Below the pieces are notes generated by a model, which worked only from the letters and a program-made list of their open reading frames with translations, had not been told where the DNA came from and searched no databases. The position numbers were made by a program, and so were the translations under genes. Below, piece by piece: positions 32,547-64,000 of a stretch of 64,000 bases of DNA. Position 1 is the first letter of the stretch. Every line of letters starts with the position of its first letter. The stretch is from Marsupella aquatica (lineage: Eukaryota > Plantae > Marchantiophyta): assembly GCA_973895155.1 (NCBI GenBank), contig OZ316892.1:4486510-4550509 (forward strand), given 5' to 3'.

Positions 32547-34223
32547 CTACGTGACCACCTCGAGCACTTGAACGACGCCCTCCGAATTGGCTGCCACGAG
32601 AGAATAGTTGTCACCATGCTCCCGCCAGCAGACAGCCCCTACGTATGGTTTTGCATATCCTACCGTGCCATAGTATCCTGGACTTTGGCCTGGAAATTTT
32701 TCATTCAGATGAGGTTGGGAACATGAATCTCTATACACGAACACCTCATTGGTTTCAGACCCACAGGCGACGATGCTGGCACCTCGGTGTATGGAGAGAC
32801 CCACGAAATGTCGGAGGTTGGTGTGTGCACCCAATGTTCTCACTGGGTGTTGCATTGTATCACTGTCATCGAATGAAGACTGCTTGACAAGCAGTCGACC
32901 ATCGTGCGCTTCTACATCTCGCAAAGGTGCTGAGATGTCCCACACCTTCAAGCTGCTGTCGATAGAAGCCGACACTAGTTTATCCTTGCCCAGGAACCGC
33001 ACATAACTGACTGCCCTATCGTGGCCGCGAAGCTTCAGCAGCGGCGACTGGGCACTCCGAAGATCATACACGTACACTAGGGAGTCCGCAGAGGCGACGG
33101 CAATGCGATAATCTGCAACCGGGCTAAATTCCGCTGAGCAGATCGAGTTGCCGCTACCTGGCCTCAGGACGAAGACGCTCTTGTCTATTCCTCTACTCCA
33201 CACACGAACGGTTCCATCTGCCGAGGATGATGCTGAAAGGGTTGGAGACACCCTGCTATAATCCAAACTCCATACTCGCTGTCCACAATGCTCATACTTT
33301 TCACTCACTGTGTGCCCGTGTTCAAGATTCCACTCCATGACAACACCATCGTAATCTCCACAGCCTATCACCTCTGATCCATCTGGACGCCACTTCAAAC
33401 TACTGAGCTTTCCCGGTGTGCAAATTTCGCCTGCGCCTGCGTATTCGTGGTCGCGAGCATAAGAACTCCTCCGCCTTCTGCTAGACGATCTCCGATGGTC
33501 ATGATCATCGTCTTCATCTGAGGAGTCCTCGTCCGATGACTCACTAGTCGCTTCACTCGCACTGACCATTTTCTCGTAGGAACAAATGCGAATTTTCCTT
33601 GCAATGCCTCCAGTGGCAAAAAAGTTCCCATCGTGATTGAAGTCAATAGTACCGATAACGTCCGATGCCAGGAGAGAAGGGCTCGTGCATCTAGAAGACG
33701 CCAAGACTCGGAACTTCCAACCTTCGTCACCTTGCATTCCTCTCTCCCGCTTAGATCGCATGGGATCAGTTCCATTTTGGTTCGGGCGAACACAAATAGT
33801 ACTCGCTGTTCCTCGATCTGAATTCTCTATCACGTCTTCAGTCGTGTGTGAAGTCTTTGACACCAAGGGGGAATTCTCAAACGACGAGGAGCTTTCATAT
33901 TGAGAGGCCGCCAGCGGTTTTGAAACACGAGGCCGGTGAGAGCAGGAGATGAATTTTCGTCGTTTGAGATGGGGGGAATCGGGCTCGAAATTCCAGAGTG
34001 CGTCAGAATGCATCCATTGTACGCTATGAGAGTTGTATTGTGTCAGAGTCGAGGGTAAAGCTGGCATGGTCCGCCGCCCAGCAACTCCACACGACACAGG
34101 GAGGCGGAACTTACGTTTTTTACTGTCAACAAAGGCTCCAAGAATCTGTCTAGATGTGTATCTCAGAAACTCCGATTCCTGATGACCGCTGACGTCGTTG
34201 GCCTGTTCACAAGAACTGATCAT
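32547..34223 (-). CDS. RUP: RUP (REPRESSOR OF UV-B PHOTOMORPHOGENESIS)-type WD40 protein, COP1/SPA WD40 family
   Basis: Single long ORF with first ATG at 34223. SDVIGTIDF..ATGGIARKIR, ICTPGKLSSLKWRP, GDYDGVVME, GHDRAVSYVRF and HFVGLS..ACGSETNEVFVY resemble RUP1/RUP2. No RING or kinase domain seen. The true start is uncertain. Confidence 0.88.
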   Translation of the reverse strand: MISSCEQANDVSGHQESEFLRYTSRQILGAFVDSKKRKFRLPVSCGVAGRRTMPALPSTLTQYNSHSVQWMHSDALWNFEPDSPHLKRRKFISCSHRPRVSKPLAASQYESSSSFENSPLVSKTSHTTEDVIENSDRGTASTICVRPNQNGTDPMRSKRERGMQGDEGWKFRVLASSRCTSPSLLASDVIGTIDFNHDGNFFATGGIARKIRICSYEKMVSASEATSESSDEDSSDEDDDHDHRRSSSRRRRSSYARDHEYAGAGEICTPGKLSSLKWRPDGSEVIGCGDYDGVVMEWNLEHGHTVSEKYEHCGQRVWSLDYSRVSPTLSASSSADGTVRVWSRGIDKSVFVLRPGSGNSICSAEFSPVADYRIAVASADSLVYVYDLRSAQSPLLKLRGHDRAVSYVRFLGKDKLVSASIDSSLKVWDISAPLRDVEAHDGRLLVKQSSFDDSDTMQHPVRTLGAHTNLRHFVGLSIHRGASIVACGSETNEVFVYRDSCSQPHLNEKFPGQSPGYYGTVGYAKPYVGAVCWREHGDNYSLVAANSEGVVQVLEVVT

Positions 34224-35049
34224 GTCAACTCGCTCCGCATGAGGGCTGCGGGACTTGCAGAGGCAGAAGATGGCTATTACACAGAACCTGATGAACAAGT
34301 CAAGGCCAAGCGATACCGTGCAATACTAAAGCACAGCTTTCCTATATTTTCCATTCTATTTGATGTAATCCCTTGAGAAAACAGATTAAATCTATTGGAA
34401 CATATTCAACGCGAGGTCAGCTAATACTCGGAAGGGTAAATCGCGACGGATACTCAAGGACAAGGCAACAACACGGCATCTTTTATCACAGAGCTGATAA
34501 TAACAAGTTGTCTACGGGATGAGATTGCTATATTGACTCCCAGAGAAGTAATGCTCCTTAAAGTTATCTTTTTTCCCGCTGAATAGCCGATCGAGGCTGT
34601 CGACAAATCCGTTCCTCACGAACGTTTCACCATTTACACTAATCTCCCGCTCAGAGGACCTACATTTGTGAGAGAAATCGAGGGGAAGTCAGAGGGAGTA
34701 AGCGTGAGCATACCATGTTCACACAGTGAAGACGACCGTCACAAGGCCTGGATCACTCTCATGCCCCCGAGGGTGGCATTTTTCTTGAATCAATAACTTG
34801 TGTTGCTCCGTAGTTATGTCACTCGGCAAGCTTGGTCCATGCCCTCGAGAGAGCTGTGTATAGAACTCCCCGCCAAATCAGCTCCTCTCTACAATTATGC
34901 TAGCTCAGCGAGTCAAAAGAGTCCCAGATTCGATTGTTCGTGGGGCCGCGGTGCCGCATGCTCTCGAGGAATACATTTTCTGCAACAAGAAATCTTTCCC
35001 CAACTAACGGAACACTGTGAAGCTACACCCGCCGCGCGTTTCCGAGCAA

Positions 35050-46400: not shown

Positions 46401-47028
46401 GTTAAGCGTTCGACATGCTGGCGATAAATATGTACCAGAGAGACGAACATGATGAACGATCCCAGAGGTGTACTCCAGCAGGCCCGCAAAGGGATAAATT
46501 TGACTGTAAATCGAAGAGTTCCCCCTCGCCATCAAGCTGTACTGACCACTCGTAATACCGTACAAAACATCACTCCCCACAGTTGAAGGGTTCAATGGTA
46601 CCACGGCCGGAGCATGTTGTGCATCTCCTGACAACCATTCAGGCTTTCAAAATCTCAGCTGCGATATTCCCATAATCCAAGGGGCAGAGGAAATGAAGGT
46701 CCCAACCTAAAAGACAACCAAAAGTGAAGATCATCATACCAGTGATCCAAGATATCCATAATGCATCAGGCGTCGACAGAGCCAAAGTGATCTGCTCAGG
46801 GGAAATGCCCAGAACCTTTTTAACAACTCGAGTATCGTTGACGGGCAGATCAATGCTGCCTTGTCGTAGAGAAGGGTCAAAAGGTACTGTCACAGGAATG
46901 AATGGTCCATCCAGAGTTGAGGGAATCTGACCCCTGGTATTGCCAATGAATTGAACCAGCAAGATGATGGCCATCCAAAGGGAGCACCAACAATGTCGCA
47001 GAGAACGAGCATCCCGCGGAGCTCCCAT
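43488..47028 (-). CDS. Purple acid phosphatase, PAP15/PAP23 (phytase) clade, secreted, 7 exons
   Basis: Exons 46740-47028, 46436-46627, 45913-46246, 45276-45493, 44562-44752, 43789-44070 and 43488-43649 are all phase-consistent. Signal peptide followed by IPSTLDGPF. Metal ligands GDLG, GDLSY, GNHE, MHPPWY and GHVH are intact. Confidence 0.95.
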
Positions 47029-47806
47029 TGTGTGCCTGTGAGGAATATTTCGAAAATCTTTTCGGTCCGGATTCAAACTTCTGCCAATCGAAATAGGTCA
47101 ACTTCGATTTTAAGTTCCAGAAAAACGATATCTGCGACTATGGTCAAAAGCAAGTACAACCCATTGGCTTGATTCGTTTCGAGGTTAGAGCTAGGTTCAG
47201 TGCAGAACTAGTCCCTTCTTAAAATATGAGTATGAATATATCTTAGACATCCGACACCATAATCACATCTTAAACCGCATGAATTGATTAATTCCACTCC
47301 GTACAGATCAGCCTTTGTAAATTGGGATATGTAGTCTCTCCTCTGTTAGCCGCAATTTCACGATTCGTCCAAAGTGAAACTGGCCTTTCCGGTTTCTCCT
47401 CCCCTATCTGTGATTCCTTTCCTATCGCATCCTGTGATCTGCCGCTATACTGTTCTCCTGGTTTTTTGGTGAGCTGGCTGCTTATCTATAGCCACATTCG
47501 GATCAATCTCTGGTAATTCCACAATGAAGGACTCCGAATTTGTACAATTGGCTAGCGCTCCCCACTTTGCCATGATCACTTGGTCGTGTCCACCACGGGT
47601 ATGATCCTCTCCCCTACTCGCCGTTCTTCTTTCCGATAGTGCCCTCTTTAAGGTATTCGTTTATGAAATAGCCTGCCCCTGCCAGTTGCACTACTGATCG
47701 TAATTAGCGTAAGCCAACCACAAAATTTGTTTCAAATGATACTCCCGATTCATCATCTTCGAGACGAAAATGCAGGTTGATCTAAAAACTCCTGTTGTTT
47801 CTGGCG

Positions 47807-48466: not shown

Positions 48467-48736
48467 TCTCTCGATCGCTGTGCCTTGCTGGAGTGCAATA
48501 ATCAAAAGAGAAAGAGCATCATTCACAGCATATGCGGCTCGTAATTCACAGCATATGCGGCACGTAATTCACAGCATATGCAGCTCCGCCTCCCGATGCT
48601 GCTGCTGCTGCTGCGACTGCTCACTGCTGATGCTGCTGCGGCACGATGTAATCGATGGCGCAATTGCTAATTGAAAGCGGAGGGGTTCTCCCACTCCTCC
48701 TCCCGTTGTGCAGCGTCGACTTGAGCTCGGTCCGAA

Positions 48737-49390
48737 CAGGTTCGTTAGCTAGTGCAAAAGTGTGGTGTGCAGCTTTTTCTTTTAAAGTGCCAAAACTTAA
48801 CGGGTTCGTTTGCTAGTGTAAAAGTGTGGTATGCACCTCTATTTTGAAGTGCCAGAAAATAACAGGTTCGTTTTGTTTCCTAGTGTAAAAGTGTGGTGTA
48901 CACCTTTTTTTTCTAAGTGCCAAAAGATAGCAGGTTCGTTTGTTTGCTAGTGCAAAAGTGTGGTGTGCAGCTTTTTCTTTTAAAGTGCCAAAACTTAACG
49001 GGTTCGTTTGCTAGTGTAAAAGTGTGGTATGCACCTCTTTTTTGAAGTGCCAGAAAATAACAGGTTCGTTTTGTTTCCTAGTGTAAAAGTGTGGTGTGCA
49101 CCTTTTTTTTTAAGTGCCAAAAGATAACAGGTTCGTTTGTTTGCTAGTGCAAAAGTGTGGTGTGCAGCTTTTTCTTTTGAAGTGCCAAAACTTAACAGGT
49201 TCGTTTGCTAGTGTAAAAATGTGGTATGCACCTCTTTTTTGAAGTGCCAGAAAATAACAGGTTTGTTTTGTTTGCTAGTGTAAAAGTGTGGTGTGCACCT
49301 TTTTTTTTAAGTGCCAAAAAATAACAGGTTCGGTTCTTCGCTAGTGTAAATGTGTGGTGTGCATCTTTTTTTTTTAAGTGCCAAAAATTT
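48737..49390. repeat. Tandem array of ~62-67-bp monomers arranged as a ~190-bp higher-order trimer x3
   Basis: Monomer CAGGTTCGTTTGCTAGTGTAAAAGTGTGGTGTGCACCTTTTTTTAAGTGCCAAAA. Variants cycle A-B-C three times. Related degraded copies lie at 49430-49510 and 49870-50080. Confidence 0.92.
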
Positions 49391-52389
49391 GCTACATTAT
49401 ATTCTCCAAAAAGTTATTTCCTCTTTGGCAAAAGTGTAGTGTGCAGCTTCTTTTAAGTGCAAAAAATTGCTAGATTCCACCTCTCCAAAAATCATTTGCC
49501 AAAGTTTTGGCAAAAGGTAACTACTAATAGGATAATGGAGGTTTGTTCTGGGTTACTAGCGAGGTCTGGTCTCCGTTACTAGCCTGTAATCATGTTACCT
49601 GAAAATGATAAAAAAACTAACCTATGGTAGCCATGAAGTTTTTCTAAGCTTAAACTGACAGATGGCAGCCATAAAGCTTTTCTAAGCTTTCTTGGAGCAA
49701 GGTTCAGGATAGAAGCCATGCTCAGACCTTCATTATATACAAGATTATTGTCCGGGAAAAAGTATATTTAGGGGCAAGAGATCATTGGAATGACAAGTAC
49801 CTCCAAAAATAGTTACACACTGGTAACTTGCATTCCTGCCAGAAATTAAGCGTAATGTGCTAGAGCTGTGGGGGTTGTGTGGAGCTTTTTTACAGTGGCG
49901 AAAGAGCCCTGGAAGTTGTGTGCAGCTTTTTTAGAAGTGGCAAAAAATTTGCTACATTCCACCACCCCAAACATTTTGTCCACTTTTGCCAAAAGGGCTG
50001 TGTGCAGTTTTTTTTATGGTACAAAAAACTCACTAGATTTCACCTCTCTAAAAAGGTTTCCCCACAATTTTGGCTAAAGTTAACTACAGTAGGTTTACTC
50101 TTCCATTAGCTAGTTTTCCACCTGGCTAGCCAAAAACCCTATCTAATGGTCCTCCTTAAATCTAGGGTGTCTAACGGTCAGAGAATGATTCAGGAAAATT
50201 AGATAAGGAACCTTCATAGGAGCCCTCTTTCACACAGGCTGACATATATACCCCACACAAGCAAATACTCAGAGCATCTTCTCTTTCACATAGACTAACA
50301 TGCGCCAACTTGCAAACCGAGAAAAACCTTAACAAGTAAGTAGGTGGTGTGTGCAGCCCTACCTGTCCATCCAGGCTTCCCTTCCTGTTACTATTTACGG
50401 ACCCCCATGAGAGGTCTCTTGCAAATTCCCGCCACGAGGTTGCACCACATCACCACAACCAGCCACAAACAGGAATGATCATACTTTTAACAATAACAAA
50501 CGTGCACATTCCTGTTTGTGGCAAAAGCAACATAATTTTTGAGCGTTTTCTTTTGTACGAGCACACACCAAGACCATCGAGAGACTCAAAACCGGCGATT
50601 ACCGCCTTGTTGAAAATCGATTTCACTTCATCAAACACACATTCCTTGGATGAACATGGGCTCCACGGATGTATTTGATATTGTGACAACAACAACAATA
50701 GTGAATTTATGGTGAACCGTGCCTCAACCACACAGAGCACTATCAGAAATTAGACAAGAAGTGCCACTACATAACCCTAATTGATTTGAAGACATAAACC
50801 ATAATGTCTTCACCAAACAACAACAAAAGACTGCCTTAGTATACTCTAGAAAATTATGAAGGGCAACCCTGACTGCAAACAGAATGATTAGGTAAACTGT
50901 AGAACAAAACTGCACTACGACATGGTAAGTTGAGGTCAAAAACTGTGTAATTCTTCAATTTAGAAGAATATTTGGTCCTGCTCATTAAGAGGGGTCCTCC
51001 TAGTAGGCAACGAAACTTTCCCAATAGTCCTAGTAGGTAACAAAACTTTCATAGAGGCCATCACATAAAAATGTTTTGCTAGGGGTCCCATCAAGCATAT
51101 ACCTCTTATTCTTCCATGGACACTTTCCATATAGTACAGTCCTCAATCCTATAACAAACCTGAAATTATTTAGCTAGCTAAATGATAACTTTATAAGTGC
51201 AAAATACTTAATAAGTGTGTTTTGTACTCAAACTAAGAAAGGTTGTACACTTATTAGTAACCACATAATCCAATGACATTGCATTTACTGATAAGTGCAC
51301 ACCCTTTCTTAGTAGACGAAAACCTGCACTTATGGACACCTAAGACATCAGTAGCACACTGGAGGCAGCAGAGGAACATCTATCCCACTTGGACAGCCCA
51401 AATCTGCAAAGAAGGCATTCTCTGAATACAATCCTACCATGTTACAAAATATGATAGGGAGTATAAATTCAGGACAACCCAATCAGAGTCTTTCATCTAG
51501 TTTGTTGTTGCTCTTGTAATCATCTACAGGATGGACGGAATTCTTCCGCTTTGCAGCTATTCACTAATCAATGTTTCCAATTGCTTATCGGCCATGTTTG
51601 CAAAATTGCTTCTACAAACCTGAAAAAAGCTCACTTGATTCTCCTATACTTGAAACTAAAGTGTCCAAATATTTCCTTATAATTTTCAGGGGGTAGATGA
51701 TTTCTCTGTATCAAGTTGTTGTACTATAGGTTTGCTTCATCCCATTTATTGAGTGCCTGTTATTGGGCTCATTGTTCATCGAATCCTTCTGGATCAACTC
51801 AATTAGAAGCAAAATGTCAAATTCACACCATATTTGCAGGCTTGGCAGCACGTGCAACTTATGGAGAGTTGTGCAAGAACTTACGATTGCTGCTGCTAAG
51901 AAAGAGATACCCCTTTCTCTTATACTGTTTTGACAACTAAGATGTTTGGCATTTCTGGGTGGCTAGGACCCAAAACGACGTAGTGCAACCAAGGTCATCT
52001 CCAATCATCTGGTTGGATTCTTAGCTTCTCCTCTATTCTATCCTCATGCTCTTTTCATACGCAGGACATTATCAGCAAACTATACGGCAGAAAACTCAGT
52101 ATTGACTGAAATGGTCTTGAGCTAGTGTTCGACGACTTCTTCTGGCCATTGTCAAGTGTTGATCAATATGCAGCAAATTTTGTCACGTACTTGAGTTCCA
52201 GGCACTACCATCAAGGTGAAGTGCGATGGTGAATCATCCTGGATCAAAATTGGACACTTTTAAGGTAATACAATGTAAATATGAGTACAATAGTTTCAGT
52301 TACACACAACAGCTCAAGTTCACTGGACTCAAGTCATGAAAACATTCATCTGTAACAACAGAAACATTTATTATTTGTAACCCAATAGT

Positions 52390-52979
52390 AGGGCTTGAGT
52401 CTTAGGGCTTGAGTCTTCTGCTTTTAGTCCCATCTGCAATGATCATAAGTATATTGTAAGAATGCCTAAATTTACAGTTCAGTTAAATTGCGATGTCTAG
52501 ATAAATACTGGGTCAAAAATTCAATGCACTGGTCTTCTTTCCAATCCAATCAAATAACAAAAAATAGAAAACATAACAAAGAAGGTTGTCTATTCTTCCA
52601 ATGTGTCTGTAATGCACGTCCGATTGAACACGCACCAACAAAAATTGAGAGCTGAAGTTAGGTGAACAGGTACCTGCAGTGGAGAATCACCAGCTTCTGA
52701 TTTCAAGCCTGTTACAGAACATCCCATGATAAGGCCATGTCTTCTCACACCCATGTACAACTTGGGTCCAATCCTCTTTATTTTGACATCGGTGAAACCT
52801 GCCCTGGTAAACCATGTCAGGTATTCCCCTTTTGTGGGAAAGAGCATCCGTGCATCTGAGAGAAACCTCAAGAGCCAGAAAGTGGGATGCACAGGACCGA
52901 TCAAGCATGCCTTGCCCCCAATTTTAAGACTTTGTAGGCCTCTTTGATGCCTCTTTGTGGATCTGGCTAGTACTCTATG
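52390..52979 (-). pseudogene. VTE3: Isolated fragment of MPBQ/MSBQ methyltransferase (VTE3/APG1)
   Basis: Exon 52674-52979 reads IEY*PDPQRGIKEAY.../GKACLIGPVHPTFW..F..MLFP...KRIGPK.Y.GVRRHGLIMGCSVTG.K..AGDSPLQ. It has a premature TAG (52967-52969), a 1-nt frameshift near 52922 and an acceptor reading CAA instead of CAG. The intron and the start of the next exon (MGLKAED, from 52433) are retained. Confidence 0.9.
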
Positions 52980-54205
52980 TTGAACAAGACAGAAATCACT
53001 GATTCAGTCCTTCTAATTAATGAGCTCATAATTTGTATCTAAGAAGAAAGTGACCATCCCACATAGAACAAACACATCCAAAGTTCACTACAAGAATTTC
53101 AAGTGCACCTCCAAGCAGACACATATCAGTCAGCATCTGGTAATTACTCTTTGGCTGCCTAGAACAGTCATCCTAAACTATAATACACAGTTGTGCCACT
53201 TTTTAGAGTGGTCGTCATTCAAATTTGGGGCACAAAAATTAAAAAATATGGTCAAAGGTTAGCAATAAGACCAAAGTGTGAATTGAGTTTAGTGTGACTC
53301 ACAAAAAGTTGCACCAGTGCCCAAGACAAGCAAGAATAATCACACGAGACCCCAAAAAGAAATTGAAAGACTTTAACACAATGTACAAGCTAGGATCAAT
53401 GAGGGATATGCTCAATAGACCCCCTCCAGGAGAAACTTTACTTGATCAGCCCCCTCCAAACTTTTTTGCCCCAATCAGCCCCCTCATTATGGCCCGTACC
53501 CTTTTCTCCCGTGTAAGCCAGTTTCCCCCGTGTAAAGGCCATACTGCACAGTTGGGAGCCATGCCACCACGCAGGGTCGCCTCCCACAGTCGACCATGAG
53601 ACTCCGCTGCAGTAGGGCTGCAACTACGTGGTTTTGCGTTCTCGCACTATGGTCCCTTATGAGCGTGAATACTTCATGGTTTATGTCTTCAACAAAATTT
53701 CTGTTTAGGGCGCACATTGTCGGGGCGCACATTGTCGGGGTGGTTTAGGGTCAAGCGCGCAGTAATCAGGCAACAGGACCTCGTAATTAGAAGTCAAAAT
53801 CGGGCATTTGCCCATCCACGCCGCCACTATCAACATTAGGGTTATGTTACGCGAATGCAAATACATTGACATGATTGTATTCTATTTGTAAACTGATCTC
53901 CATAATTTTTTAATATCCTCCCATCCCAACTTTTGTCCATGCTCGATAACAAGTACACTCAACTTTCCACGAGGCGCACGGCGCACGGTGCACGCACCTG
54001 CCACCATCGATTGCAGAGGAAAACAAGGTACTACTGTGCAGATGTTAGAATGTGTAAACTGAAGGCACAAACAATGTTAGGAAACGACGTCAGTTCATGG
54101 GCTGTAGAGCCCTTTCGCATGTGGCTTAGTAAATGTTTTTGAGCTTTACGTTAAATGGACATGACTAACCTCTGCACAGTACTCATATGCACATTGAAGT
54201 ACAGG

Positions 54206-57200
54206 ATGGCAAATGATGTAAGTGACATCAATCTTTGGCGTCGAGGGGATGTCTGTGAGGTGGACATTCCCGATTCTGACAGGCAATCACCACAAAGAGC
54301 AAGGCGGGGAACAACACGAAGACATCTGAAAAATCTGAAATCAATCCTGGATGGGAAGAGTCCCGAAGAAGGTGAATCTACTGTGCTTCAAGTTAGTATT
54401 TGGAGGATTTGTTTGGCTTAAGTATGAAGTTGCTCCCGTATGAATCATAAGTTTTGCACTGTTGAAGTGGAGAGCTCCCATAGACGTTCTTCATTATGTA
54501 TTCTACAATGCTCTTGGCAGTGGAAGCAGAGGCGGCTCGCATTCATCTGGGCGAGCGTTTTAACAATTTTGATGAATTTGATAGATGTTTGGACTCGTGG
54601 GCTGTCATGCATGGCCGAGTAGTGTATAGACTTAAAACCTCCCCCAATTTTCGAACAAGGGTTTGCCGATTTAGTAAGATTGCTCATCGACATGAAAGGA
54701 AGTCAAGTGGTGACATTAGACCTGGGCCAGACAGTTTTGAATGTAGTGATAGTTCAGAAGATGAAGATTCACTATATATCCATGAATTGGATGATGAACA
54801 TGAACATGAATTAGATTGGCACTATAACAGTCGTTACGGTGAGTATAGTGGGTTCCGTGATAGAGGAATGACATCCGAACCAAGGGGGACACGAAGGACA
54901 CACAATGCCTATGCAGAACCATTATTGACAGCGGAAGAGGTAAAGCTTTTGAAGAGTCCATACCTATATCATTGTGGTTTTTTTGAAGGGTTAGAAATGT
55001 AATACTTGTCACTCTGTGTTTTGATGCATGGTATGTTTGTGCTGCCATTGCAGATGGAAGACCGTGAGTTTCAAATTGCTATTCAACAGATGGCAGGATC
55101 AACAAACCAGTCTGGAGCAATCGTTCTCACAAATGCTCCACAGGTATACCTAAACCGGAATGTCTTCTTTGCATTTTACCATCAATGTTTTGTATACGAC
55201 GTCATGAGTGTCTTCTATGTTTCATATAAACATCCCCATTGTGGTGTGTATTTTGTATACAATGACACCACTGTCTTTTGTGTTTCCATATACAATAACA
55301 TGAATATGTTCTGTGTGGATTGCAATAGGAGGTTCGTGCACCCCTTGGACCTCTGGATCCAAATTGTCTCTAGAGGAACACAACGATGGCAAAGAAACCA
55401 CGCACAGTAGTGCAGCATAGCAGTGTGTGGCTACCTGGGTCACATGCCCCTGGCACGGTAAAAGTCAGGAAGATATCTACCACAGGAGTATGTGGGGAGT
55501 TTTCTAGGTTTAGGCCCCCGCCAGAGTACGATGAAGATGGTTTTGATTGTTCAGCCTACTGCCCATTCAGGGTCCGATGTCACAGGCAAGCTCACAGCGG
55601 GGCTCATATCATTACTGTGTGTGAGCTGAAACACAATTGTCCAGCATCTAAACACAAGTGGAGGGGCCCAACACAAAAGGCAGTGTGGTTAGGAGACACA
55701 CTGGCGCCTAGAGTGTGTAGAAATCTGAAGGTGCCGGTCAAAGAACTACTCTATGGATTTCAAGGGGATTATAAAAAGAACAGCACTTACCACCAAATGT
55801 GGCGAGCAAAAGACTATGTACGGGATCTGCACCTTGGTGGGCAGGAAGACACGTTTCAAATGATTCCGGCATTAATTGCCAGGGTGAGAGAGACTGACCC
55901 TGGTGCAGTGGCAGTCTGGTCCCCAATGGAAAACTCCAACTTTTTCTGTCGAGCATTCATTTGCCCATCAGCTACACGAAAAGCATGTACCTACATTCAA
56001 CCTCTCATCTCTCTTGATGCATGTCATACAAAGAACAGGAAGTACCCCACTCAACTGTTCTTAGCTACATGTTTGGATGGAAATGGCCAAGGATTGATTC
56101 TATGTTACGCAGTAGCTCCAGTTGAGAACACAGATAATTGGATCTGGTTTCTGGAATTGGTAGATAGATCACTCTACGACATTGAATTGCCTCACATGCC
56201 ACTCATATCAGACCGACAGAAAGGCCTACTTGCCGCTGTGAGTTACGTGTGGCCAGGTAAGATACATGCAGCATGTGCAAACCACCTGAGAGCTAATGTC
56301 AAGAACAGGCATGGCAAGGCAGCAGCAGATATTTTTACAGGATGCATATATGCCAACGATGAAAGACAGTAAGTCCAAAAACCTTCATTGCTTTGATTCT
56401 ACATACATTTGACTTCTTATGTATACACCGCATACTCAGTGTTCAATACAATAATTATATTACCTCTCCTCGAATACAGAATGTGAAGTACATATCACTC
56501 ACGCAAATGTTTTCTCTGTGTATGACATGATTGTATACATTAACATCAATGTTTTCCCTGTGCACTTGTATCAGATTTGAAGCATGTTTGAAGCGACTGG
56601 CAGAGTCCGTCAAGGCATATGAGAATGCAAATGTTGTAGACTACATCAGAAGTTTTGATGCAAAACTTTATGCCAGGCATGCCTTTCCACTTCCCCGCAT
56701 GGCAAAGGTTACAAGCAACCCTGCTGAGCAAGCAAATTCAGGCTTACTCCCCTTACGCGAATTTGCTCCTTGCAAGTTGATGGAGCGCATGTGGGTATAT
56801 GTTCAGCAAAAGTTTAAAGAAAGGAAAGTAGCTGCTTTGACGAGACAGGAAGTACTCACTATTCCAGCCCTGCTCAGGTACAACAAGAATCTCAAGACGT
56901 TTGGTCAATGGCAGGTAATCTTCATGCCTGGTCTGTGTATGCATTACTAGCTACGTGTTCTGTATATACTGTAACATCAATGTCTTCTTAATAGCTCGGT
57001 GTTGAATTAAAATACACTAGTATGAATGTATTCTTTATTTGAATAGTTTAGTAATTATATCCAAGTTTTCATATGCTCAGGTGTTTGATGATGGTGCGTC
57101 CACAGCCAAGGTTCAAACTACATCCCAAAGTGAGGAGTATCTAGTGTCACTGTCACCAAAGAAATGTTGCACTTGTTGGGAGCTGCAAGAGATGGTGTGG

Positions 57201-58092
57201 CCATGTGAGCATATAATGGCTTGGGATGACCAGGAAGGCAGAAATTTTTCTGCTCATTTTCACAAATGTTGGCGGACTGCTTCAATTAGGGCCTTGTATG
57301 ACAATGTTTTACCTAGCTTTATTGTATCAGACTTAATGCCAAGTCCAAATTGTGTTGCTCTTGTGGCTGCTGTGAAAAGGGGCAGACATAGAATGGTCCG
57401 CATCGAACAGGGTCGTGGAGGGAGGCATCCACCTAGGGCTCTTGGAGAAGGCGAAGAATCAGTGATTGACTCCCTTGGACAACTGTTCTTGAGATATCCA
57501 CTAGATGATGATCCAAACAGGGTGGAACCTTTTTCAACAGCAAACACTATTGCTGGACTTCCAATTGTTCTTGTTCAATCGAGGGCAAAGAAAGCGGGGC
57601 CTAACACTGGGAAGTGCAGGTGCAGTAAGTGTGGGCAGGTTGGACATAACCGAAGATCTTGTGATAAAGTCCATAGTGTGACGCCAACAGATCCAGCAAG
57701 AGTAAGGATTCCAACATTAACAGTCTTCTTACAAGTATATATCATTACTTGTGGGCTTCATGCATGTGTGGTCTCATGCTAGGGACAAATTTTAAAATTG
57801 CCTCCATATGTAGGTGGATAATGGTGATGCAGTCAATTTGGAGCACCCACCTGTGTCACCCTTTCCTTGGGAAGACCAACTACCGCAGACTGAATATAGT
57901 ATTGAATCGACCGCACCAACAGCAGGCACAGGACCAATCCAGAGCATTGTATCTCAGCCCCTTCTCCAAAATAGTGAACAACAATTGCCACAAGCTTTCA
58001 TTGATAGGTGCATGGAATTGGCCAATGAGGCTGCAATAGAGTGTCAGGGATTTGGGTCACAATATCATGTTGATATTACTGAACCTTACTAG
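54206..58092 (+). CDS. MuDRA-like Mutator transposase, ~969 aa, 7 exons
   Basis: Exons 54206-54371, 54521-54939, 55054-55143, 55374-56368, 56575-56914, 57081-57701 and 57814-58092 join in frame. MuDR N-terminal motif GERFNNFDEF..SWAV; catalytic ISLDACH, ISDRQKGL, CANH and TSNPAEQAN; SWIM CTCWELQEMVWPCEH; zinc knuckle CSKCGQVGHNRRSC. Confidence 0.9.
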
Positions 58093-58593
58093 TTACTTAT
58101 TTACTGAACTTTGGTTGTGCATCAAAACAGACTCTTGTCACTTTTTTCCACCATTATTCTTTGATGAATACAACATATTCATGTTGTCTTTCCGTTTATC
58201 TTCCATCCTTGCACTTGAAGACAGCGACCATGTTGTCTTCTTAACTTCCTTCATTGTTATTGAAGACATTGACCATAATGTCTTCAAATTTGAATCTACT
58301 TCCGCAATGATATTGGCGCGCGGGACCGTTGGTCGACATTGAGTGTTCCATGGAGAATGTGCGCGTTTTGCGAGCGAACTAAAGCGGAGTCTTTGAAGTC
58401 ATCCACGTGAGTGACAACAAAGGGAGGAGGTCTTAGGAGACCAGTGTAGTAGAGGACGGACAGGACAGCACTGCAGCGCCAGAGAGAGGGGTCTGAGTAG
58501 ATTGTGCAGCGCCCGAGAGCGCCAGAGAGAGCAAGAGCACCAGGGACAGGAGAGCGACAACGAGAGCGCCAAGGATAGGATTGCCATTTGGCA

Positions 58594-59325
58594 ATGGCAA
58601 AGTTCAACGAAGGCAGTGTTGGTTTTGTAGTTCAGTTGTTTTGGGCATTGGGGTTCGCCATATGGACCGTATTTGCAGGTTTGAGTGCACTACTCTTCTT
58701 CCTCCATCGCATGTTGGAACGGATTTTGTGTTTGTCTTCAGTGTGGAATCGAGATAGGCTGCCTCCCCTTGCTCAAAGTACAGCGCCATCAAAATCAGAG
58801 GGTCACGATTCCCCTGTAGTGGCTGTTGTTGGGCCACCAAAACCTGTATTGGCTCGGCGCCAGGGTGCTAATGCAGGTCCATCTTTGTCAGCCTCACAAG
58901 CACAATTGGTTGACGTTGTGCAAACTCAGCCTGCCACAAGGGTGAAATTACAATCACAGACTTTGTCCTCTCGCTCTAAGTCAATTGCTCTTCCATACAA
59001 TTGTGATCTAGGCTCTACCTCAAAGAAGAAATGGTATGCCATTGCTAGGGGGCGCAGTCCTGGAATATATCGTACTTGGGAGGAGGCAGAATGTCAGGTG
59101 AGCGGATTCAGTGGAGCTAGTCACAAGTCTTTTAGGTCCCATTCTGAGGCGGAGGCATGGCTTCAACGACAATTTAGTGCAATGGGTGCACAATGGAGGG
59201 CTCCTATCAAAGCAGATGGTCATAGAGTTAATGTTGAGTTGCTGGGAGTAGATGAGTCTGGGCATGAAGTATTTAGGTGCACCTGTTGTGGGGAAGTATT
59301 TTGTAGCAATGAGCTCTTGACTTAG
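58594..59325 (+). CDS. Intronless protein: N-terminal hydrophobic helix, low-complexity linker, RNase H1 N-terminal / caulimovirus viroplasmin (Cauli_VI) hybrid-binding domain, C-terminal Cys cluster
   Basis: KKKWYAIARGRSPGIYRTWEEAECQVSGFSGASHKSFRSHSEAEAWL matches the HBD consensus (YAVxxGRxxGIYxxWxECxxQVxGFxGAxHKSFxTxxEAxxF). Ends HEVFRCTCCGEVFC. No RNase H catalytic domain follows. Confidence 0.85.
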   Translation: MAKFNEGSVGFVVQLFWALGFAIWTVFAGLSALLFFLHRMLERILCLSSVWNRDRLPPLAQSTAPSKSEGHDSPVVAVVGPPKPVLARRQGANAGPSLSASQAQLVDVVQTQPATRVKLQSQTLSSRSKSIALPYNCDLGSTSKKKWYAIARGRSPGIYRTWEEAECQVSGFSGASHKSFRSHSEAEAWLQRQFSAMGAQWRAPIKADGHRVNVELLGVDESGHEVFRCTCCGEVFCSNELLT

Positions 59326-59559
59326 TTTACACCACAGTGGTAACAAGTTCAAATAATAGCTCACAAGAAGTAGCAATTGCAATTTTGATTTAGTTGCAGA
59401 CATTGAAGTCTGCAATAGCATTGTACTCCAACAATTTAGAGATGTTCTACAAATTTTGAAACTATTTTGCAGTTGTCATGTGCATCTTGTGTGAAACCAC
59501 TAGTGTTGGCCATTTACGTACCCCCGCTCAAATTTCTTCTTGAAGCAGAATCGAATATC

Positions 59560-59940
59560 CTACCGTTGGAAAAATGGCTAAGTGTGGTGCGAAGACTATA
59601 TGGACAATGTCTTCCAAAACTCACAACATCCACCATTTACCCCTGCTCAAATGGCTTCTTCAAGCAAAATATCCTGTCGTTGGAAAAATGGCTAAGTGTG
59701 GTGCGAAGACTATATGGACAATGTCTTCCAAAACCCACAACATCCACGGTCATTTACCCCTGCTCAAATGGCTTCTTCAAGCAAAATATCCTGTCGTTGG
59801 AAAAATGGCTAAGTGTGGTGCGAAGACTATATGGACAATGTCTTCCAAAACCCACAACATCCACGGTCATTTACCCCTGCTCAAATGGCTTCTTCAAGCA
59901 AAATATCCTGTCGACAATGTGGACAATGTCTTCCAAAACT
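59560..59940. repeat. Tandem repeat, 3 x 120-123 bp, between the convergent genes
   Basis: GTTGGAAAAATGGCTAAGTGTGGTGCGAAGACTATATGGACAATGTCTTCCAAAAC.CACAACATCCAC...CATTTACCCCTGCTCAAATGGCTTCTTCAAGCAAAATATCCTGTC, near-identical copies. Confidence 0.95.
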
Positions 59941-60207
59941 GAAGGTGCAAACTGAAGGTAGTATCCAGCAGAATGAATAACTTTTATACATCAGAACACA
60001 GTGAATGCAACTTGCTTTTTATTCATAAATGTTTCCAGTACAAGTTGCAAGTCGAGTTGTGACCTTGCAGTGTAGATGTATCACGGGCCTCCTTGCCTTC
60101 CAATGAAGCTACATTGTATTTGAAGCTACCTCAAGCTACATTGCATCTAAAGACCATTGAAGCTACCACAAAAATGGCTTAGTACCACACGGGAAGGGTG
60201 TCCACGC

Positions 60208-63200
60208 TCAGTCAGCATACTGGGAAGGGTGCGGGAGTTGGTCAATAACCTCCCTGAATGTATCTTGTGAAGCAGTCATTTGGGAGTCATGCAAAAGTTG
60301 TGATGGCCCAAATGTGTCTACATTGTCACCATCATCTAGCTGGATTTCATGCAAGGGAGTTGGTTGAGTAGAACACTGTGCTCCTCTTCCTCTCCCTTGC
60401 CCCCCGCCTCTACTTGTCGCGATTTTACTTCGCTTTGGCTTGCCTCTCACTCTGTCTTCAACTTCTGATGTTGCTAAGTCATCATCTTCGGGGTGCAAAA
60501 ACACAACTTTTGTTTTGGGGTTGACTGCCAATAGAGGAACAACCTGCAATGCCTGGCTCATACCCTTGCTTGATTTAGAGGCCTCCTTCCTCTTCCTTGA
60601 GACATGAACAGGTACTAAGGACAAAGCAGCTCCTCCTTGTGGTACCTACAACCCACAAAGACATTAGAATACATGGACAAAGAGGTATTCACATTCCACA
60701 ATGAAGCAGAGGAATTTTGCTGCTCCACCTGTGAGGAGTTCGTAGCCGGTGCAGGGCCTGGTGTTGGCACTGGTATAGGGGCTGGTGCTTCTGCTGGTCC
60801 TGGTGTAGGGGCATGTGCTAGTGGTGGTCCAGGGATACCGGCAGGTGCATGTGTTGGTGTTGTTATAGGGACAGGGGCTGAGTGTTCATTTGTTGGAATA
60901 GGGGTTGGGGCAGGTGCAAGGGATTGCTCCACCAAATTTCGGTTTCCTTTTCGCCTTTTGCTTGCCTTTTCCCGTTGTTGCCCTTCCTACAATCCAAAGC
61001 AACATCAAAAGACATTGACAAAGAGGTATTCACATTACTCAACAATTGGACGCCGCTGATGAGAAGGAATTCAATTATGTGGCCTAAGACACAAAGGCGT
61101 ACCTTGGAGGGGTTGGTAGCTGGTATTGGGATTGCTAGTGCCACTGGTGCTGAGGACATTGCTGACACATCCCTTCCCCTTTGTCTTCCTCCCTACAATG
61201 AAAAAAATTATTAATTGACATAGAAGACAGTGAGGGTTGTGTATTCACTCCCTGCAAAGCAGTTTGATAAGGAAATTAGCCTGGTACATCAAGACATACC
61301 TGGGAGGGGTTGCTTGTCGGTGCTGGTGCTGCTACTGGTTTTGGGGGCACCGCTGATACACCCCTTCCCCTTTTACTTCCTCTCTACAATGGAGAATATC
61401 ATTAAGTGACTTGAATACACCGAGGGTTGTGTATTTAACCCCTGCAAAGTAATATGAATAGAAAGGAATGTGGCCTTGTACAGGAAGGCAAACCAGGCTG
61501 ACCTATATCAAATTTCTTTCCCGTGCATGGGCTAGAATGAAGAAATTGTAGTGCACGCAGAAGACAATTAGGGTGATGTATTCAAACTTCCAAGTAAGCG
61601 CTTTTGAGACTTACAATCTATGGTGCGAGGGCTGGTGCTGGTGATTCCACTGCTACAACCCCTCTAGGAGCCCTTCCGCTTCGTCTCTAGAATGAAGACA
61701 TTGCAGTGCACACCAAAGACAATGAGGCAGATGTATTCAGACATTGCAAAGCATTGGAAACAAATGTTTTTACCGAAAACACAAAGGCAAACCTGGGAGT
61801 GAAAAGACATTGGGGTTGAAGTATTTAGACTACATTGCAATTGCACGAATTCCAAGTAAGCACTTCTGAGACTTACAATCCGTGGTGCGAGGGCTGGTGC
61901 TGGTGATTCCACTGCTACAACCCCTCCACTTGTCCTTCCGCTCCGTCTCTAGAATGAAGAAATTGCAGTGCACGGCGAAGACAATGAGGCAGCTGTATTC
62001 AGACATTGCAAAGCATTGCAAACATATGTTTTTACAAAAAACACAAAGGCAAACCTGGAAGGGGTTTGTTGACATTGGAGGGGATGGTGCTGCTTTCTGT
62101 ACTGGGGATGGGGACTCCAGTGGTACACCCCTTCCCCTTCGTCTTTGTCCCTACAATATATGAAATGAATGCTTAGGGGAGTGAAAAGACATTGGGGTTT
62201 AAGTATTCAGACTAGATTGCAATTGAATGACTTCCAAGTTTGCACTTTAGAGACTTACAATCTGTGGTGCAGGGGCTGGTGGTGGTGGTCGTGCTGCTGC
62301 TACTGGTACCGACTCTAATAGTACAATCTGTGGTGCAATGGCTGGTGCTGCTGGTGCAAGTGGTGGTAAGGACTCCGAGACTAATATACACGATACAGGG
62401 GCTGGTGCTGTTGCTGCGACTGGCGCTATGAAGTCTGGGAGTAGAGTCTCAGGTGTAGGGGTTGGTGGTGCTACGAACTCCGAGATAGTCTCCGATACTA
62501 CTCCTTCCTGCAATGAACACAAGGAGCATCCGAATACGATGAGGCTCATGTATTCACAATTTGCAAAGAAATTCCAAAAGTAATTGAAGCAAAGAAACAA
62601 AGACTGACCTGGAGGGGGTAGTCGTCCTCTCCCTCTCCATAGGCGTAAAGAATATTTTGGAGGCTTGAAACCAAGTGACGCTGTTGTGAAAAGCTGATTC
62701 CTTGTTCATAAACATCCTGAATAGGATTGTCAATGGGATCCTGAACAGGATGGTCAATAGGACCCTGAATAGGATCATGAACAGGATGCTCAATAAGATG
62801 GTCTAAATCCTCAACATGAGAAGGATTCTGATGATTATTGTCTTCATCATCCTGAACAGGATGGTCAATAGGATCCTGAATAGGATCATGAACAGGATGC
62901 TCAATAAGATGGTCAACATCCTCAACATGAGAAGGATTCTGATGATCACTGTCTTCATCATCCTGAACATGAGAAGGAACCTGAATAGGATCTTGTACAA
63001 GAGGCGGGTCCTCAACTGAAGTATTGAGGACAGGTTTAGATACAACGTCTGGCTCATCTGGCTGTTGATCAGCATCATTTAGCAACAGACCCCACTTCTC
63101 AGGCCCAGGCTCATAGTCACTATCGTTAGAAGTGTCCTCCCACTCTTCATTTAGTCCAGCCTGCACATGGTTGGGACAAGATGAGAATGGAATGTACAAA

Positions 63201-64000
63201 CAACAAGCAAAGATCGCAGGAAGTAAAATAAAAGGTCATACCTCTATTCGTGCAGCTTCAGTGGTCATGCCCCGACCTTTGTATTCCTGTAGCAAATTGT
63301 TAGTGGCTGTGGCTATGCTGACAGGCTTTTGCTCTTCTTTCCACTCCTTGTAATCTTGGTATGCAGCATCGAAGTCCACTTCTTTGGGGCCATGCTTCCA
63401 CTGCAGAAGCGCTCTTTTTTGAGTCAAGTAATTCAAGGCATCTGCAATGAGAGCCTCTCGAATTGTATCAAACTGCATCAGCTCGGGAGGTTGCACCTCC
63501 ACATCTGCCCGGGGGAAAATGCATGGCAGGACACTACAATCTAATTGAAGTGCCTGCAACTTACGATCTCTAGGTAGGAGTACCGGCAAAGCTTGGATTG
63601 AAGCAACCCAGCGAGACAAAATAGGAGAAATTGCAGCAGCTAACACAGAGTCTTGCAACATCTCGTACACACTGTCATCCAACAAGGATGACCAACCATT
63701 AGCCTGCCCTGCACGTATGTGCACTTCCTTGATGACACGAATAAGCAACGATTTTGCAAGAACAAGCGGCTCATCTGCAGCAACACCATACTTCTTCTTT
63801 AGCATTGTCTTCTTCCGCAACTTAGTCTGTCTCCACCGAAGTCGCATAGTGGATCGAAGCCGGTTCCAAGAGGCCTGATTGTTGTCCTTCCTCACATTTG
63901 GCCCAGGGGCCTTATGTTTCTTGGCAATCCGAGTGGAGAAGTCGGATTTTGAGAACAACCAAGGTTTGCCCGCCTCCAATAATGCAGGTGGCAACTCCAA
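60208..64000 (-). CDS. Convergent multi-exon accessory gene (5' end outside window): unknown globular region, Asp/His-rich repeats, basic + Pro/Ala-rich modules
   Basis: Exons 63242->64000, 62609-63160, 62259-62507, 62055-62150, 61877-61948, [61615-61686 with TAG], 61300-61383, 61103-61192, 60729-60986 and 60208-60645. All are GT-AG, phase 0, and the complete ones have lengths divisible by 3. Confidence 0.75.

What the first reader, a model, noticed from the sequence alone, without database searches (positions are those of the whole stretch)
58594..59325. Nuclease-less RNase H1 hybrid-binding-domain protein with predicted membrane anchor and Cys-rich tail
Seen: a hydrophobic stretch (VGFVVQLFWALGFAIWTVFAGLSALLFFL), an S/A/P/Q-rich linker, a complete HBD with the conserved Y/W/K residues, and a short H..CTCC..C tail; there is no catalytic RNase H fold. 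Known: this domain binds RNA:DNA hybrids or dsRNA in RNase H1, and also occurs in caulimovirus P6/TAV, a silencing suppressor. Inference: it could sequester dsRNA or siRNA precursors, protect R-loops from host RNase H1, or tether nucleic acid to a membrane.
Basis: partly seen in the sequence, partly recalled or inferred. Interest (0 to 1): 0.8.

Follow-up and report, generated by a model that had tools for sequence, protein, structure and literature searches.

The report
Liverwort transposon's anchored hybrid-binding accessory gene
A large, many-copied plant DNA transposon, likely from a liverwort, carries a separate conserved gene whose protein has the RNA:DNA-gripping domain of RNase H1 but no cutting domain, plus a predicted membrane anchor and a likely zinc-binding tail, and it would likely shield the transposon's own RNA:DNA hybrids to help keep the element active.

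Summary
The ORF is real: 243 aa, with an RNase H1 hybrid-binding domain (HBD; Pfam Cauli_VI, E 2e-19) and no catalytic domain. It is an accessory gene inside a multicopy Mutator-like element (about 53.17 kb to beyond the window) whose transposase is closest to liverwort proteins. It lies between the transposase and a convergent multi-exon gene, and the element's introns and spacers carry 22 copies of one spaced palindrome. Ten relatives share the HBD and an unassigned His/Cys tail, likely zinc-binding. Differences listed among copies are mostly synonymous (12 of 17). The membrane anchor is clear in only 3 of 11 family members. Best reading: it binds R-loops without cutting them and shields them on the element (about 0.4). 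Rivals are dsRNA sequestration, transposition targeting and a TAV-like translation role. The caulimovirus analogy is weak, because that domain is reported dispensable for P6 silencing suppression. Expression, binding and localisation are untested. Cauli_VI is already tabulated in a few transposon accessory proteins; my searches found no description of this architecture. Verdict: new variant of a known kind, interest 0.55.

The parts
58594..59325 (+). Single-exon accessory ORF, 243 aa (P0001): hydrophobic helix, disordered linker, HBD, His/Cys tail
58618..58704 (+). Hydrophobic segment, aa 9-37; predicted membrane anchor
   Evidence: KD 2.16; crude insertion-scale sum -1.5; helix 5-53. No dedicated TM predictor available.
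58756..58977 (+). Variable, predicted disordered linker, aa 55-128
   Evidence: pLDDT <50; 18 of 74 identical to P0002, against 39 of 44 in the HBD
58987..59013 (+). Conserved motif before the HBD, aa 132-140, with N136 and C137; C137 is a possible metal ligand
   Evidence: N in 11 of 11, C in 10 of 11
59029..59160 (+). RNase H1 hybrid-binding domain (Cauli_VI, PF01693), aa 146-189
59206..59313 (+). Conserved His/Cys tail, aa 205-240, three predicted strands; likely zinc-binding; no family or fold assigned
58101..58593 (+). Likely promoter and leader of the ORF: CpG-rich patch, two perfect palindromes (58217-58240, 58262-58285), purine-rich leader
   Evidence: CpG o/e 1.05 in 58101-58400 against 0.44 for the element
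54496..58092 (+). MULE transposase. Inferred six GT-AG exons (54496-54939, 55054-55143, 55329-56368, 56575-56914, 57081-57701, 57814-58092), 937 codons, one in-frame stop at codon 193 in this copy
   Evidence: PF10551 E 3.4e-12; exon model; 60% identical over 208 aa to a Calypogeia fissa protein
60208..64000 (-). Second accessory gene, convergent, multi-exon, start beyond the window; many small Pro/Ala-rich exons with basic patches, some apparently broken; no family assigned
   Evidence: read by eye; no Pfam hit for 3 pieces scanned; Atlas best score 0.79
59554..59933 (.). 117-bp tandem repeat (3.1 copies) between the convergent genes, one palindrome per unit and a fourth at its end
53667..62555 (.). 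22 copies of a spaced palindrome (7-bp arms, 10-bp spacer) in introns and intergenic DNA of the element
53170..64000 (.). Multicopy Mutator-like element; left boundary about 53170-53178, right end beyond the window (at least 10.8 kb)
   Evidence: step in contig depth and pile-up of loose ends

Best explanation
This is a conserved accessory gene of a large multicopy Mutator-like transposon, likely of a liverwort, and its protein likely binds RNA:DNA hybrids without cutting them and would shield the R-loops on the element's transcribed DNA from host RNase H1, so helping the element stay active. Shown: the ORF, the HBD without a catalytic domain, the position inside the element, the family of 11, the synonymous excess among listed differences (confidence about 0.9 that it is a selected accessory gene of the element). 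Inferred: that it is expressed from its own promoter; that the HBD binds hybrids; that the hydrophobic helix anchors it in the ER or nuclear envelope with the binding domain on a long tether facing the cytosol or nucleoplasm; that the His/Cys tail binds zinc and adds a partner or nucleic-acid contact; that hybrid shielding opposes silencing. The palindromes are more likely bound by the transposase or the opposite-strand protein than by this one.
For: Element membership: in run X1 summed contig depth is 24-44 at 52.0-52.8 kb and 171-884 in all 26 bins from 53.6 to 64 kb, with 262-303 over the ORF; runs X2 and X3 show the same step. Loose ends pile up at 53170-53178 (12-29 contigs per place) but reach at most 3 per place around the ORF among the rows shown. 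Two X6 contigs join transposase exon-5 sequence to about 59004 (matched by eye). The palindrome lies on both sides of the ORF. Own gene: the transposase model stops at 58092 and a CpG-rich patch precedes the ORF, as one precedes the transposase. Selection: 12 of 17 listed differences in the ORF are synonymous against 23-30% expected, p 5e-5 to 5e-4; 10 of 14 after dropping two near-private sites and one same-codon site, p up to 0.002. HBD and tail are conserved while the linker diverges. Binding surface: W43 and K59 equivalents kept; fold matches the human HBD-hybrid complex. Plausibility from papers: persistent R-loops at transposons impair silencing in mouse oocytes lacking RNase H1 (PMC13392016, abstract only); Mutator-like VANDAL elements encode anti-silencing accessory proteins (PMC5735166, passages). 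That the HBD prefers hybrids to dsRNA is recalled, not from a call.
Against: No expression, binding or localisation data. The K60 equivalent is Ser, and K59A/K60A lowers hybrid affinity about tenfold in human RNase H1, though Ser is the commonest residue there among other HBDs (57 of 144). W162 is lost in 2 of 11 family members and K178 is Glu in 2 of 11, so binding may not be universal. A clear membrane segment is found in 3 of 11 members, a marginal one in 2 and none in 6 (two lack the N-terminus altogether, and truncated gene calls cannot be excluded). A membrane-bound protein reaches chromatin only if it gets to the inner nuclear membrane, which is not shown. The genomic context of the ten relatives is unknown, so linkage to MULEs is shown only for this element family. 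The variant table shows 40 of 221 differences, chosen by support, and copies are related, so the p-values are optimistic. The depth tool warns that summed depth is not a copy number. The oocyte result is from an animal.
Confidence: 0.4

Rival explanations
1. ER-anchored suppressor of RNA silencing: the HBD faces the cytosol and sequesters dsRNA from the element's transcripts before Dicer-like enzymes reach it.
For: The TAV homologue of this domain binds both hybrids and dsRNA in vitro (PMC5902531, passage). The ORF and the opposite-strand gene are convergent, 0.9 kb apart, which could yield dsRNA. RdDM targets non-coding regions of VANDAL elements (PMC10398659, abstract). A cytosol-facing topology needs no nuclear import.
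Against: The same review says the dsR domain is dispensable for RNAi suppression by P6. A general dsRNA sponge would harm the host; PMC12973397 notes broad anti-silencing is rare in plant elements (passage). Preference of HBDs for hybrids is recalled.
Confidence: 0.2
2. Transposition cofactor in the manner of MURB: it binds the transposase and tethers the complex to R-loop-rich transcribed DNA or to the nuclear envelope, steering insertion.
For: Maize MURB binds the N-terminus of MURA and is needed for heritable insertion (PMC12973397, section 7 and passages). The gene sits directly behind the transposase in the same orientation. This copy lies next to a host gene exon.
Against: No sequence likeness to a known cofactor was found. 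One insertion site says nothing about preference.
Confidence: 0.15
3. TAV-like translation helper: the HBD fold is used as a protein-binding surface for ribosomal proteins or TOR at the ER, improving translation of the element's RNAs.
For: In CaMV TAV the same domain binds TOR, eL18 and eL13 (PMC5902531, passages). Loss of W162 or K178 in some members would be tolerated if nucleic-acid binding were not the point.
Against: The element's genes look separately promoted and spliced, not polycistronic. Fold matches to TAV proteins have query TM-scores of 0.48 or less, consistent with the HBD alone.
Confidence: 0.1
4. Captured cargo that does nothing for the element: a host or foreign gene carried passively, or one kept because it benefits the host.
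For: MULEs often capture genes (PMC6446971, passages). The context of the ten relatives is unknown, and some may be ordinary host genes.
Against: Synonymous excess among the element's own copies; intact frame although the transposase of this copy has a stop; flanked by the element's palindromes.
Confidence: 0.1
5. First exon of a spliced RNase H1-like gene whose catalytic part lies elsewhere.
For: No RNA data exclude it; only 4.7 kb downstream are in the window.
Against: All 11 members carry Cauli_VI only and 10 end within about 12 residues of the last conserved cysteine. Three RNase H proteins hit the window only at this ORF. The downstream DNA is tandem repeat and an opposite-strand gene. 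The domain after the HBD is a conserved tail, not a spacer.
Confidence: 0.03

Closest known systems
Eukaryotic RNase H1 N-terminal hybrid-binding domain (PF01693; human 3bsu, yeast 1qhk)
   Same: Sequence and predicted fold; W43 and K59 equivalents kept.
   Different: No catalytic domain; order reversed (long linker before the HBD); K60 is Ser, F58 is His; extra hydrophobic helix and His/Cys tail; encoded in a transposon.
Cauli_VI-bearing proteins of other DNA transposons (PMC12973397 Table S6, four rows seen; Pleurotus Helitron capE, PMC4289320, passages)
   Same: The domain is already listed in 1 of 1846 MULE, 3 of 775 CACTA and 1 of 217 PIF/Harbinger accessory entries, 3 of 217 PIF/Harbinger transposase entries, and in a Helitron cargo gene.
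   Different: These are annotations only; the passages and rows seen give no architecture or function. I could not see whether the single MULE entry belongs to this family.
VANDAL/VANC anti-silencing system of Arabidopsis (PMC5735166, passages; PMC10398659, abstract)
   Same: Large Mutator-like element with extra genes; a short motif concentrated in introns, spacers and tandem repeats.
   Different: The motif here is a spaced palindrome, not a 9-base word in one orientation; P0001 has no family hit but Cauli_VI; which protein binds the motif is unknown.
Caulimovirus P6/TAV dsR domain (PMC5902531, passages)
   Same: An HBD without a nuclease in a selfish plant genetic element.
   Different: No caulimovirus genes seen in the 53-64 kb region; 243 aa against about 420-540 aa for most full-length TAV entries; hydrophobic helix and His/Cys tail; the TAV domain serves TOR and ribosome binding and is dispensable for RNAi suppression.
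ParB-like accessory genes with inverted-repeat arrays in algal giant transposons (Ectocarpus Sola1-1_Ec32, PMC12477816; Bostrychia Plavaka PAG3, 10.1101/2025.02.11.637652; passages)
   Same: Giant DNA transposon, opposite-strand accessory gene, repeated inverted repeats proposed as self-binding sites.
   Different: No ParB or methylase domain was detected in the pieces of the opposite-strand gene scanned; neither main text mentions RNase H or Cauli domains (0 occurrences).
MuDR MURB accessory protein (PMC12973397, section 7)
   Same: Small second gene of an autonomous MULE, convergent multi-gene layout.
   Different: No shared domain detected; binding to the transposase is untested here.

Membership tests
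RNase H1 (enzyme) | N-terminal hybrid-binding domain | tested here: met
   Cauli_VI 70.1 bits, full model; fold match to 3bsu
RNase H1 (enzyme) | C-terminal catalytic RNase H domain | tested here: not met
   absent from the ORF and from 11 of 11 family members; no hit elsewhere in the window
Functional HBD (hybrid binder) | W43, K59, K60 binding surface (PMC6846478, passage) | tested here: inconclusive
   W162 and K178 kept, S179 for K60, H177 for F58
Functional HBD (hybrid binder) | Measured binding to RNA:DNA hybrids | not testable with these tools
   needs EMSA or anisotropy
Caulimovirus P6/TAV | Encoded in a caulimovirus or endogenous pararetrovirus genome | tested here: not met
   neighbours are a MULE transposase and an intron-rich gene; no relative in viral contigs
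Caulimovirus P6/TAV | Likeness beyond the dsR/HBD domain | tested here: inconclusive
   BFVD matches have query TM-score 0.48 or less; only aa 124-243 were modelled for this search
Mutator-like element (host element) | MULE DDE transposase | tested here: met
   PF10551 47.1 bits, cutoff 27.6; motifs at codons 406, 471, 573
Mutator-like element (host element) | Dispersed multicopy family including this ORF | tested here: met
   depth step, loose ends, divergent contigs over the ORF
Mutator-like element (host element) | Terminal inverted repeats and target-site duplication | not testable with these tools
   right end lies beyond the window; no genome held
VANDAL/VANC-type anti-silencing system | Family-specific short motif concentrated in non-coding DNA and tandem repeats | tested here: met
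   22 sites in 10.8 kb against 3 in 53 kb; 27 of 29 outside coding intervals
VANDAL/VANC-type anti-silencing system | VANC-related protein | tested here: inconclusive
   no Pfam hit but Cauli_VI for P0001; the opposite-strand gene is incomplete and unassigned; no direct comparison with VANC sequences was made
VANDAL/VANC-type anti-silencing system | Sequence-specific loss of methylation caused by the accessory protein | not testable with these tools
   needs transgenic methylomes
Single-pass membrane protein | Conserved membrane-spanning segment | tested here: inconclusive
   clear in 3 of 11 members, marginal in 2; crude scales only
Known zinc-finger family | Profile or fold match of the His/Cys tail | tested here: inconclusive
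   no Pfam family at cutoff, no PDB sequence match, best fold row over the tail is a Dof domain at Z 2.5, rmsd 3.3, 36 aligned; tail not folded alone

The most novel reading that the evidence does not exclude
A DNA transposon encodes a nuclear-envelope-anchored R-loop reader with a new His/Cys zinc module. It holds the element's transcribed copies at the nuclear periphery and shields their RNA:DNA hybrids, working with a palindrome-binding partner as a two-part, R-loop-based anti-silencing system unlike VANC.
Probability: 0.15. Interest if true: 0.8.

Novelty: new variant of a known kind. Interest (0 to 1): 0.55.

Why it matters
Few transposon accessory proteins have a known mechanism. If this one shields R-loops, it would show a transposon using RNA:DNA hybrids to resist silencing, and would give a first function to the stand-alone HBDs that are so far only tabulated in MULE, CACTA, Harbinger and Helitron elements. 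A membrane anchor on a DNA-transposon protein would tie element activity to position in the cell. The protein is small and testable in Marchantia or in vitro, and a nuclease-free hybrid binder could serve as an R-loop probe. If it is only cargo, it remains an undescribed 11-member family with an unassigned metal-binding tail.

Tried and rejected
No whole genome is held, so copies, the right end, terminal repeats and target-site duplication could not be read. No RNA holder was listed among six runs; this says nothing on expression. Metagenome scan: 17 loci, all matching through the HBD only (the readable ORFs are RNase H-like, helicase-like or unrelated proteins), none with the element's other genes. 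Viral contigs: the tail alignment was too variable to search; with P0001, 0 of 8 candidate stretches were relatives. ESM Atlas: best 0.85 for aa 125-243 (fungal Cauli_VI clusters) and 0.79 for the opposite-strand exon, leads only. The tail profile found only its own 10 seed proteins among 7699 candidates of 89-2000 aa; the tool calls such a blank weak evidence, and P0001 as a whole was not searched against longer proteins in that database. No PDB sequence or clear fold match (no Z of 5 or more) for the tail; it was not folded alone, so a known fold is not excluded. P0046 was dropped from the family: it is an RNase H with two HBDs and no tail. HBD phylogeny (50 columns) gave no donor: the quick tree joined the 11 with four multi-HBD proteins at SH-aLRT 98, the careful tree did not star that group and its bootstrap had not settled, and monophyly of the 11 was not rejected in a 36-row subset (p-AU 0.20). 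A first transposase exon model had wrong boundaries and was corrected; the approximate intervals were also used for the coding/non-coding count. A complex prediction with the transposase N-terminus was not run because the queue was full. Look-ups of earlier findings by sequence, near place and relatives were empty. Literature searches that found no description of this architecture: (open-licence library only; listings seen; bioRxiv supplements closed, and Repbase-type records not searchable).

Full report
Observation. 58594-59325 (+) encodes an intact 243-aa protein. Pfam finds Cauli_VI, the RNase H1 N-terminal domain, at aa 146-189 over the full model (E 1.9e-19) and nothing else at cutoff. 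Three solved sequences match, all RNase H1. An AlphaFold model of aa 124-243 from 11 sequences (mean pLDDT 72) superposes on the human HBD in its hybrid complex, rmsd 0.6 A over 46 residues. By the alignment, human W43, F58, K59 and K60, named as the binding surface in PMC6846478 (passage), correspond to W162, H177, K178 and S179. Among 144 other HBDs Ser is the commonest residue at the K60 position (57) and His occurs at the F58 position in 27, so these are ordinary variants. The N-terminus has 32 uncharged residues, predicted as part of one helix, and aa 55-126 are predicted disordered (three sequences).

Context. The ORF lies in a Mutator-like element. Upstream is a transposase (PF10551) that can be read as six GT-AG exons from 54496 to 58092, with one in-frame stop at codon 193 in this copy. 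Of 13 longer relatives found, the best is unnamed, the next eight are from the liverworts Calypogeia fissa and Riccia sorocarpa, and the last four are much weaker (60% over 208 aa to the Calypogeia protein). The host is therefore likely a liverwort. Downstream, on the other strand, lies a multi-exon gene ending at 60208 and starting beyond the window (read by eye), with no family assigned. Six public runs under three organism labels hold the stretch; one may be the source. In X1, summed contig depth is 24-44 at 52.0-52.8 kb and 171-884 in all 26 bins from 53.6 to 64 kb, with 262-303 over the ORF; X2 and X3 show the same step. Loose ends pile up at 53170-53178 (24 of 931 rows shown). Around the ORF no place shows more than 3 (24 of 126 rows shown), so the ORF does not look like a separate insertion. 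Summed depth is not a copy number, but a roughly tenfold step with many divergent contigs indicates a dispersed family. A CpG-rich patch (o/e 1.05 against 0.44) precedes the ORF, as another (1.12) precedes the transposase, suggesting its own promoter.

Palindrome. A 7-bp word is enriched in the element (24 against 4 in the first 50 kb). It forms a palindrome with a 10-bp spacer: 22 sites at up to 2 mismatches in 10.8 kb against 3 in the other 53 kb, and 0-4 at the 12 other spacers tried; 1.08 are expected in the window and 0 of 100 shuffles reach 25. At up to 3 mismatches 27 of 29 sites fall outside approximate coding intervals that cover 58% of the element. The pattern was drawn from these sites, so spacer specificity and non-coding location are the independent checks. 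This recalls VANC motifs in VANDAL non-coding DNA (PMC5735166, passages), inverted repeats beside ParB-like genes of algal transposons (10.1101/2025.02.11.637652 and PMC12477816, passages), and self-activation by a Mutator transposase (10.64898/2026.08.24.746577, abstract and section 7). Unreviewed notes report palindrome-studded MULEs with ParB-like genes elsewhere in this genome; they are leads only. Nothing ties the palindrome to the HBD protein.

Family and selection. Two full-length relatives came from the word-indexed search (49% and 47% identity). The exhaustive search gave 4728 hits, mostly by the HBD alone; among the 150 listed, 11 extended to about aa 240, and one (P0046, an RNase H) was dropped, leaving 10. 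More may lie below rank 150. All 10 come from sequencing-run assemblies and carry no name; their neighbourhoods could not be read. H210, H224, C229, C231 and C237 are invariant in 11 of 11, C232 and C137 in 10 of 11: seven candidate ligands, enough for up to two zinc ions (inference). The tail matches no Pfam family at cutoff, no PDB sequence and no fold above Z 2.5. Against P0002, identity is 39 of 44 in the HBD, 28 of 36 in the tail, 24 of 50 in the N-terminus and 18 of 74 in the linker. Of the 40 differences shown (of 221) among contigs, 17 lie in the ORF and 12 are synonymous, against 23-30% expected (p 5e-5 to 5e-4); a stricter count gives 10 of 14 (p up to 0.002), and 10 of 12 in aa 130-243. 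Selection of rows by support and relatedness of copies make these p-values optimistic. Against my reading: W162 is lost in 2 of 11 members and K178 is Glu in 2; a crude insertion scale finds a clear membrane segment in P0001, P0002 and P0003, a marginal one in P0008 and P0077, and none in four others, while P0020 and P0022 lack the N-terminus. P0073 begins just after the hydrophobic segment of its close relative P0077, so truncation of gene calls may explain some of these, but I could not verify it. The origin of the HBD is unresolved.

Mechanism. Shown: a selected, nuclease-less HBD gene inside a MULE. Inferred: the protein binds RNA:DNA hybrids, the preferred ligand of this domain (recalled). 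A binder without a nuclease would compete with host RNase H1 and stabilise R-loops. In mouse oocytes lacking RNase H1, persistent R-loops go with impaired silencing, and transposon R-loops go with higher transcription (PMC13392016, abstract only). For a transposon that also bears a self-recognition motif, hybrid shielding as an aid against silencing is the most economical reading (0.4). The hydrophobic helix and long tether would place the domain at the ER or nuclear envelope; reaching chromatin needs the inner nuclear membrane, which is untested. Rivals: dsRNA sequestration at the ER (0.2), transposition cofactor like MURB (0.15; PMC12973397, section 7), TAV-like translation role (0.1), passive or host-serving cargo (0.1), part of a spliced RNase H (0.03).

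Comparison and novelty. It is not an RNase H1 (catalytic domain absent; plant RNase H1 has HBD, linker and catalytic domain per 10.1101/572842, passages) and not a caulimovirus gene (context not met). MULEs with extra ORFs are well known (PMC6446971 and PMC6431247, passages). Cauli_VI is already listed in 1 of 1846 MULE, 3 of 775 CACTA and 1 of 217 PIF/Harbinger accessory entries and 3 of 217 PIF/Harbinger transposase entries (PMC12973397 Table S6, four rows seen), in a Pleurotus Helitron gene (PMC4289320, passages), and fused to bacterial HEPN nucleases (PMC3710099, passages). Unreviewed notes report stand-alone HBD genes in a copia element of this genome and in fungal KDZ transposons. Seven searches listed no paper describing the helix-linker-HBD-His/Cys architecture or a function for transposon HBDs; the library is open-licence only, and bioRxiv supplements and repeat databases were not seen.

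Verdict. A real, conserved transposon accessory gene of a small undescribed family; new variant of a known kind. Interest 0.55: unusual anatomy and an easily tested hypothesis, but a mechanism that rests on inference, with no expression or binding data.

Noticed in passing
window 53667-62555: A spaced palindrome (7-bp arms, exactly 10-bp spacer) occurs 22 times in the element at up to 2 mismatches, against 0-4 at other spacers and about 1 expected in the whole window; it sits in nearly every intron. The pattern was drawn from these same sites. Its binding protein is unknown; unreviewed notes on this genome link such palindromes to ParB-like accessory proteins.
   Followed up: partly
window 60208-64000 (-): Unassigned multi-exon gene built from duplicated exon-intron units (Pro/Ala-rich exons with basic patches, each intron with a palindrome) and an acidic 111-bp repeat exon; several small exons look broken in this copy.
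   Followed up: partly
window about 52670-52975 (-): Exon resembling a plant MPBQ/MSBQ methyltransferase (name recalled, no family hit) with a stop and a frame change, just outside the element's left end; contigs show a second, divergent copy. Likely a pseudogene.
   Followed up: partly
window 53170-53600: Contig depth here is several times that of the element's interior (2250 against about 250-400 in X1): many short non-autonomous derivatives of the end, or a separate repeat abutting it.
   Followed up: no
window 50758-50813: One perfect palindrome and a 26-nt inverted match to 61565-61590 outside the element; possibly a relic of a related element.
   Followed up: no
window 48708-49452: Tandem array of 67-bp units with a 197-bp higher-order period.
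   Followed up: no
run X6 contigs laid at window 59004-59005: Two contigs join transposase exon-5 sequence directly to the start of the HBD region: internally deleted copies in another organism label, or misassembly.
   Followed up: partly
L012 9947-12292, L010 461-1792, L014 2435-4006: Metagenome ORFs with an N-terminal HBD followed by what reads as a Pif1-like helicase and, in L012, a uracil-DNA glycosylase-like region (names from recall, not scanned).
   Followed up: no
window 9993-10496 (+), 14325-15686 (+), 32550-34325 (-), 46639-47097 (-): Host-like ORFs reading as a short-chain dehydrogenase, a guanylate kinase, a WD40 protein and a purple acid phosphatase exon (names from recall; the last had no Pfam hit).
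   Followed up: no
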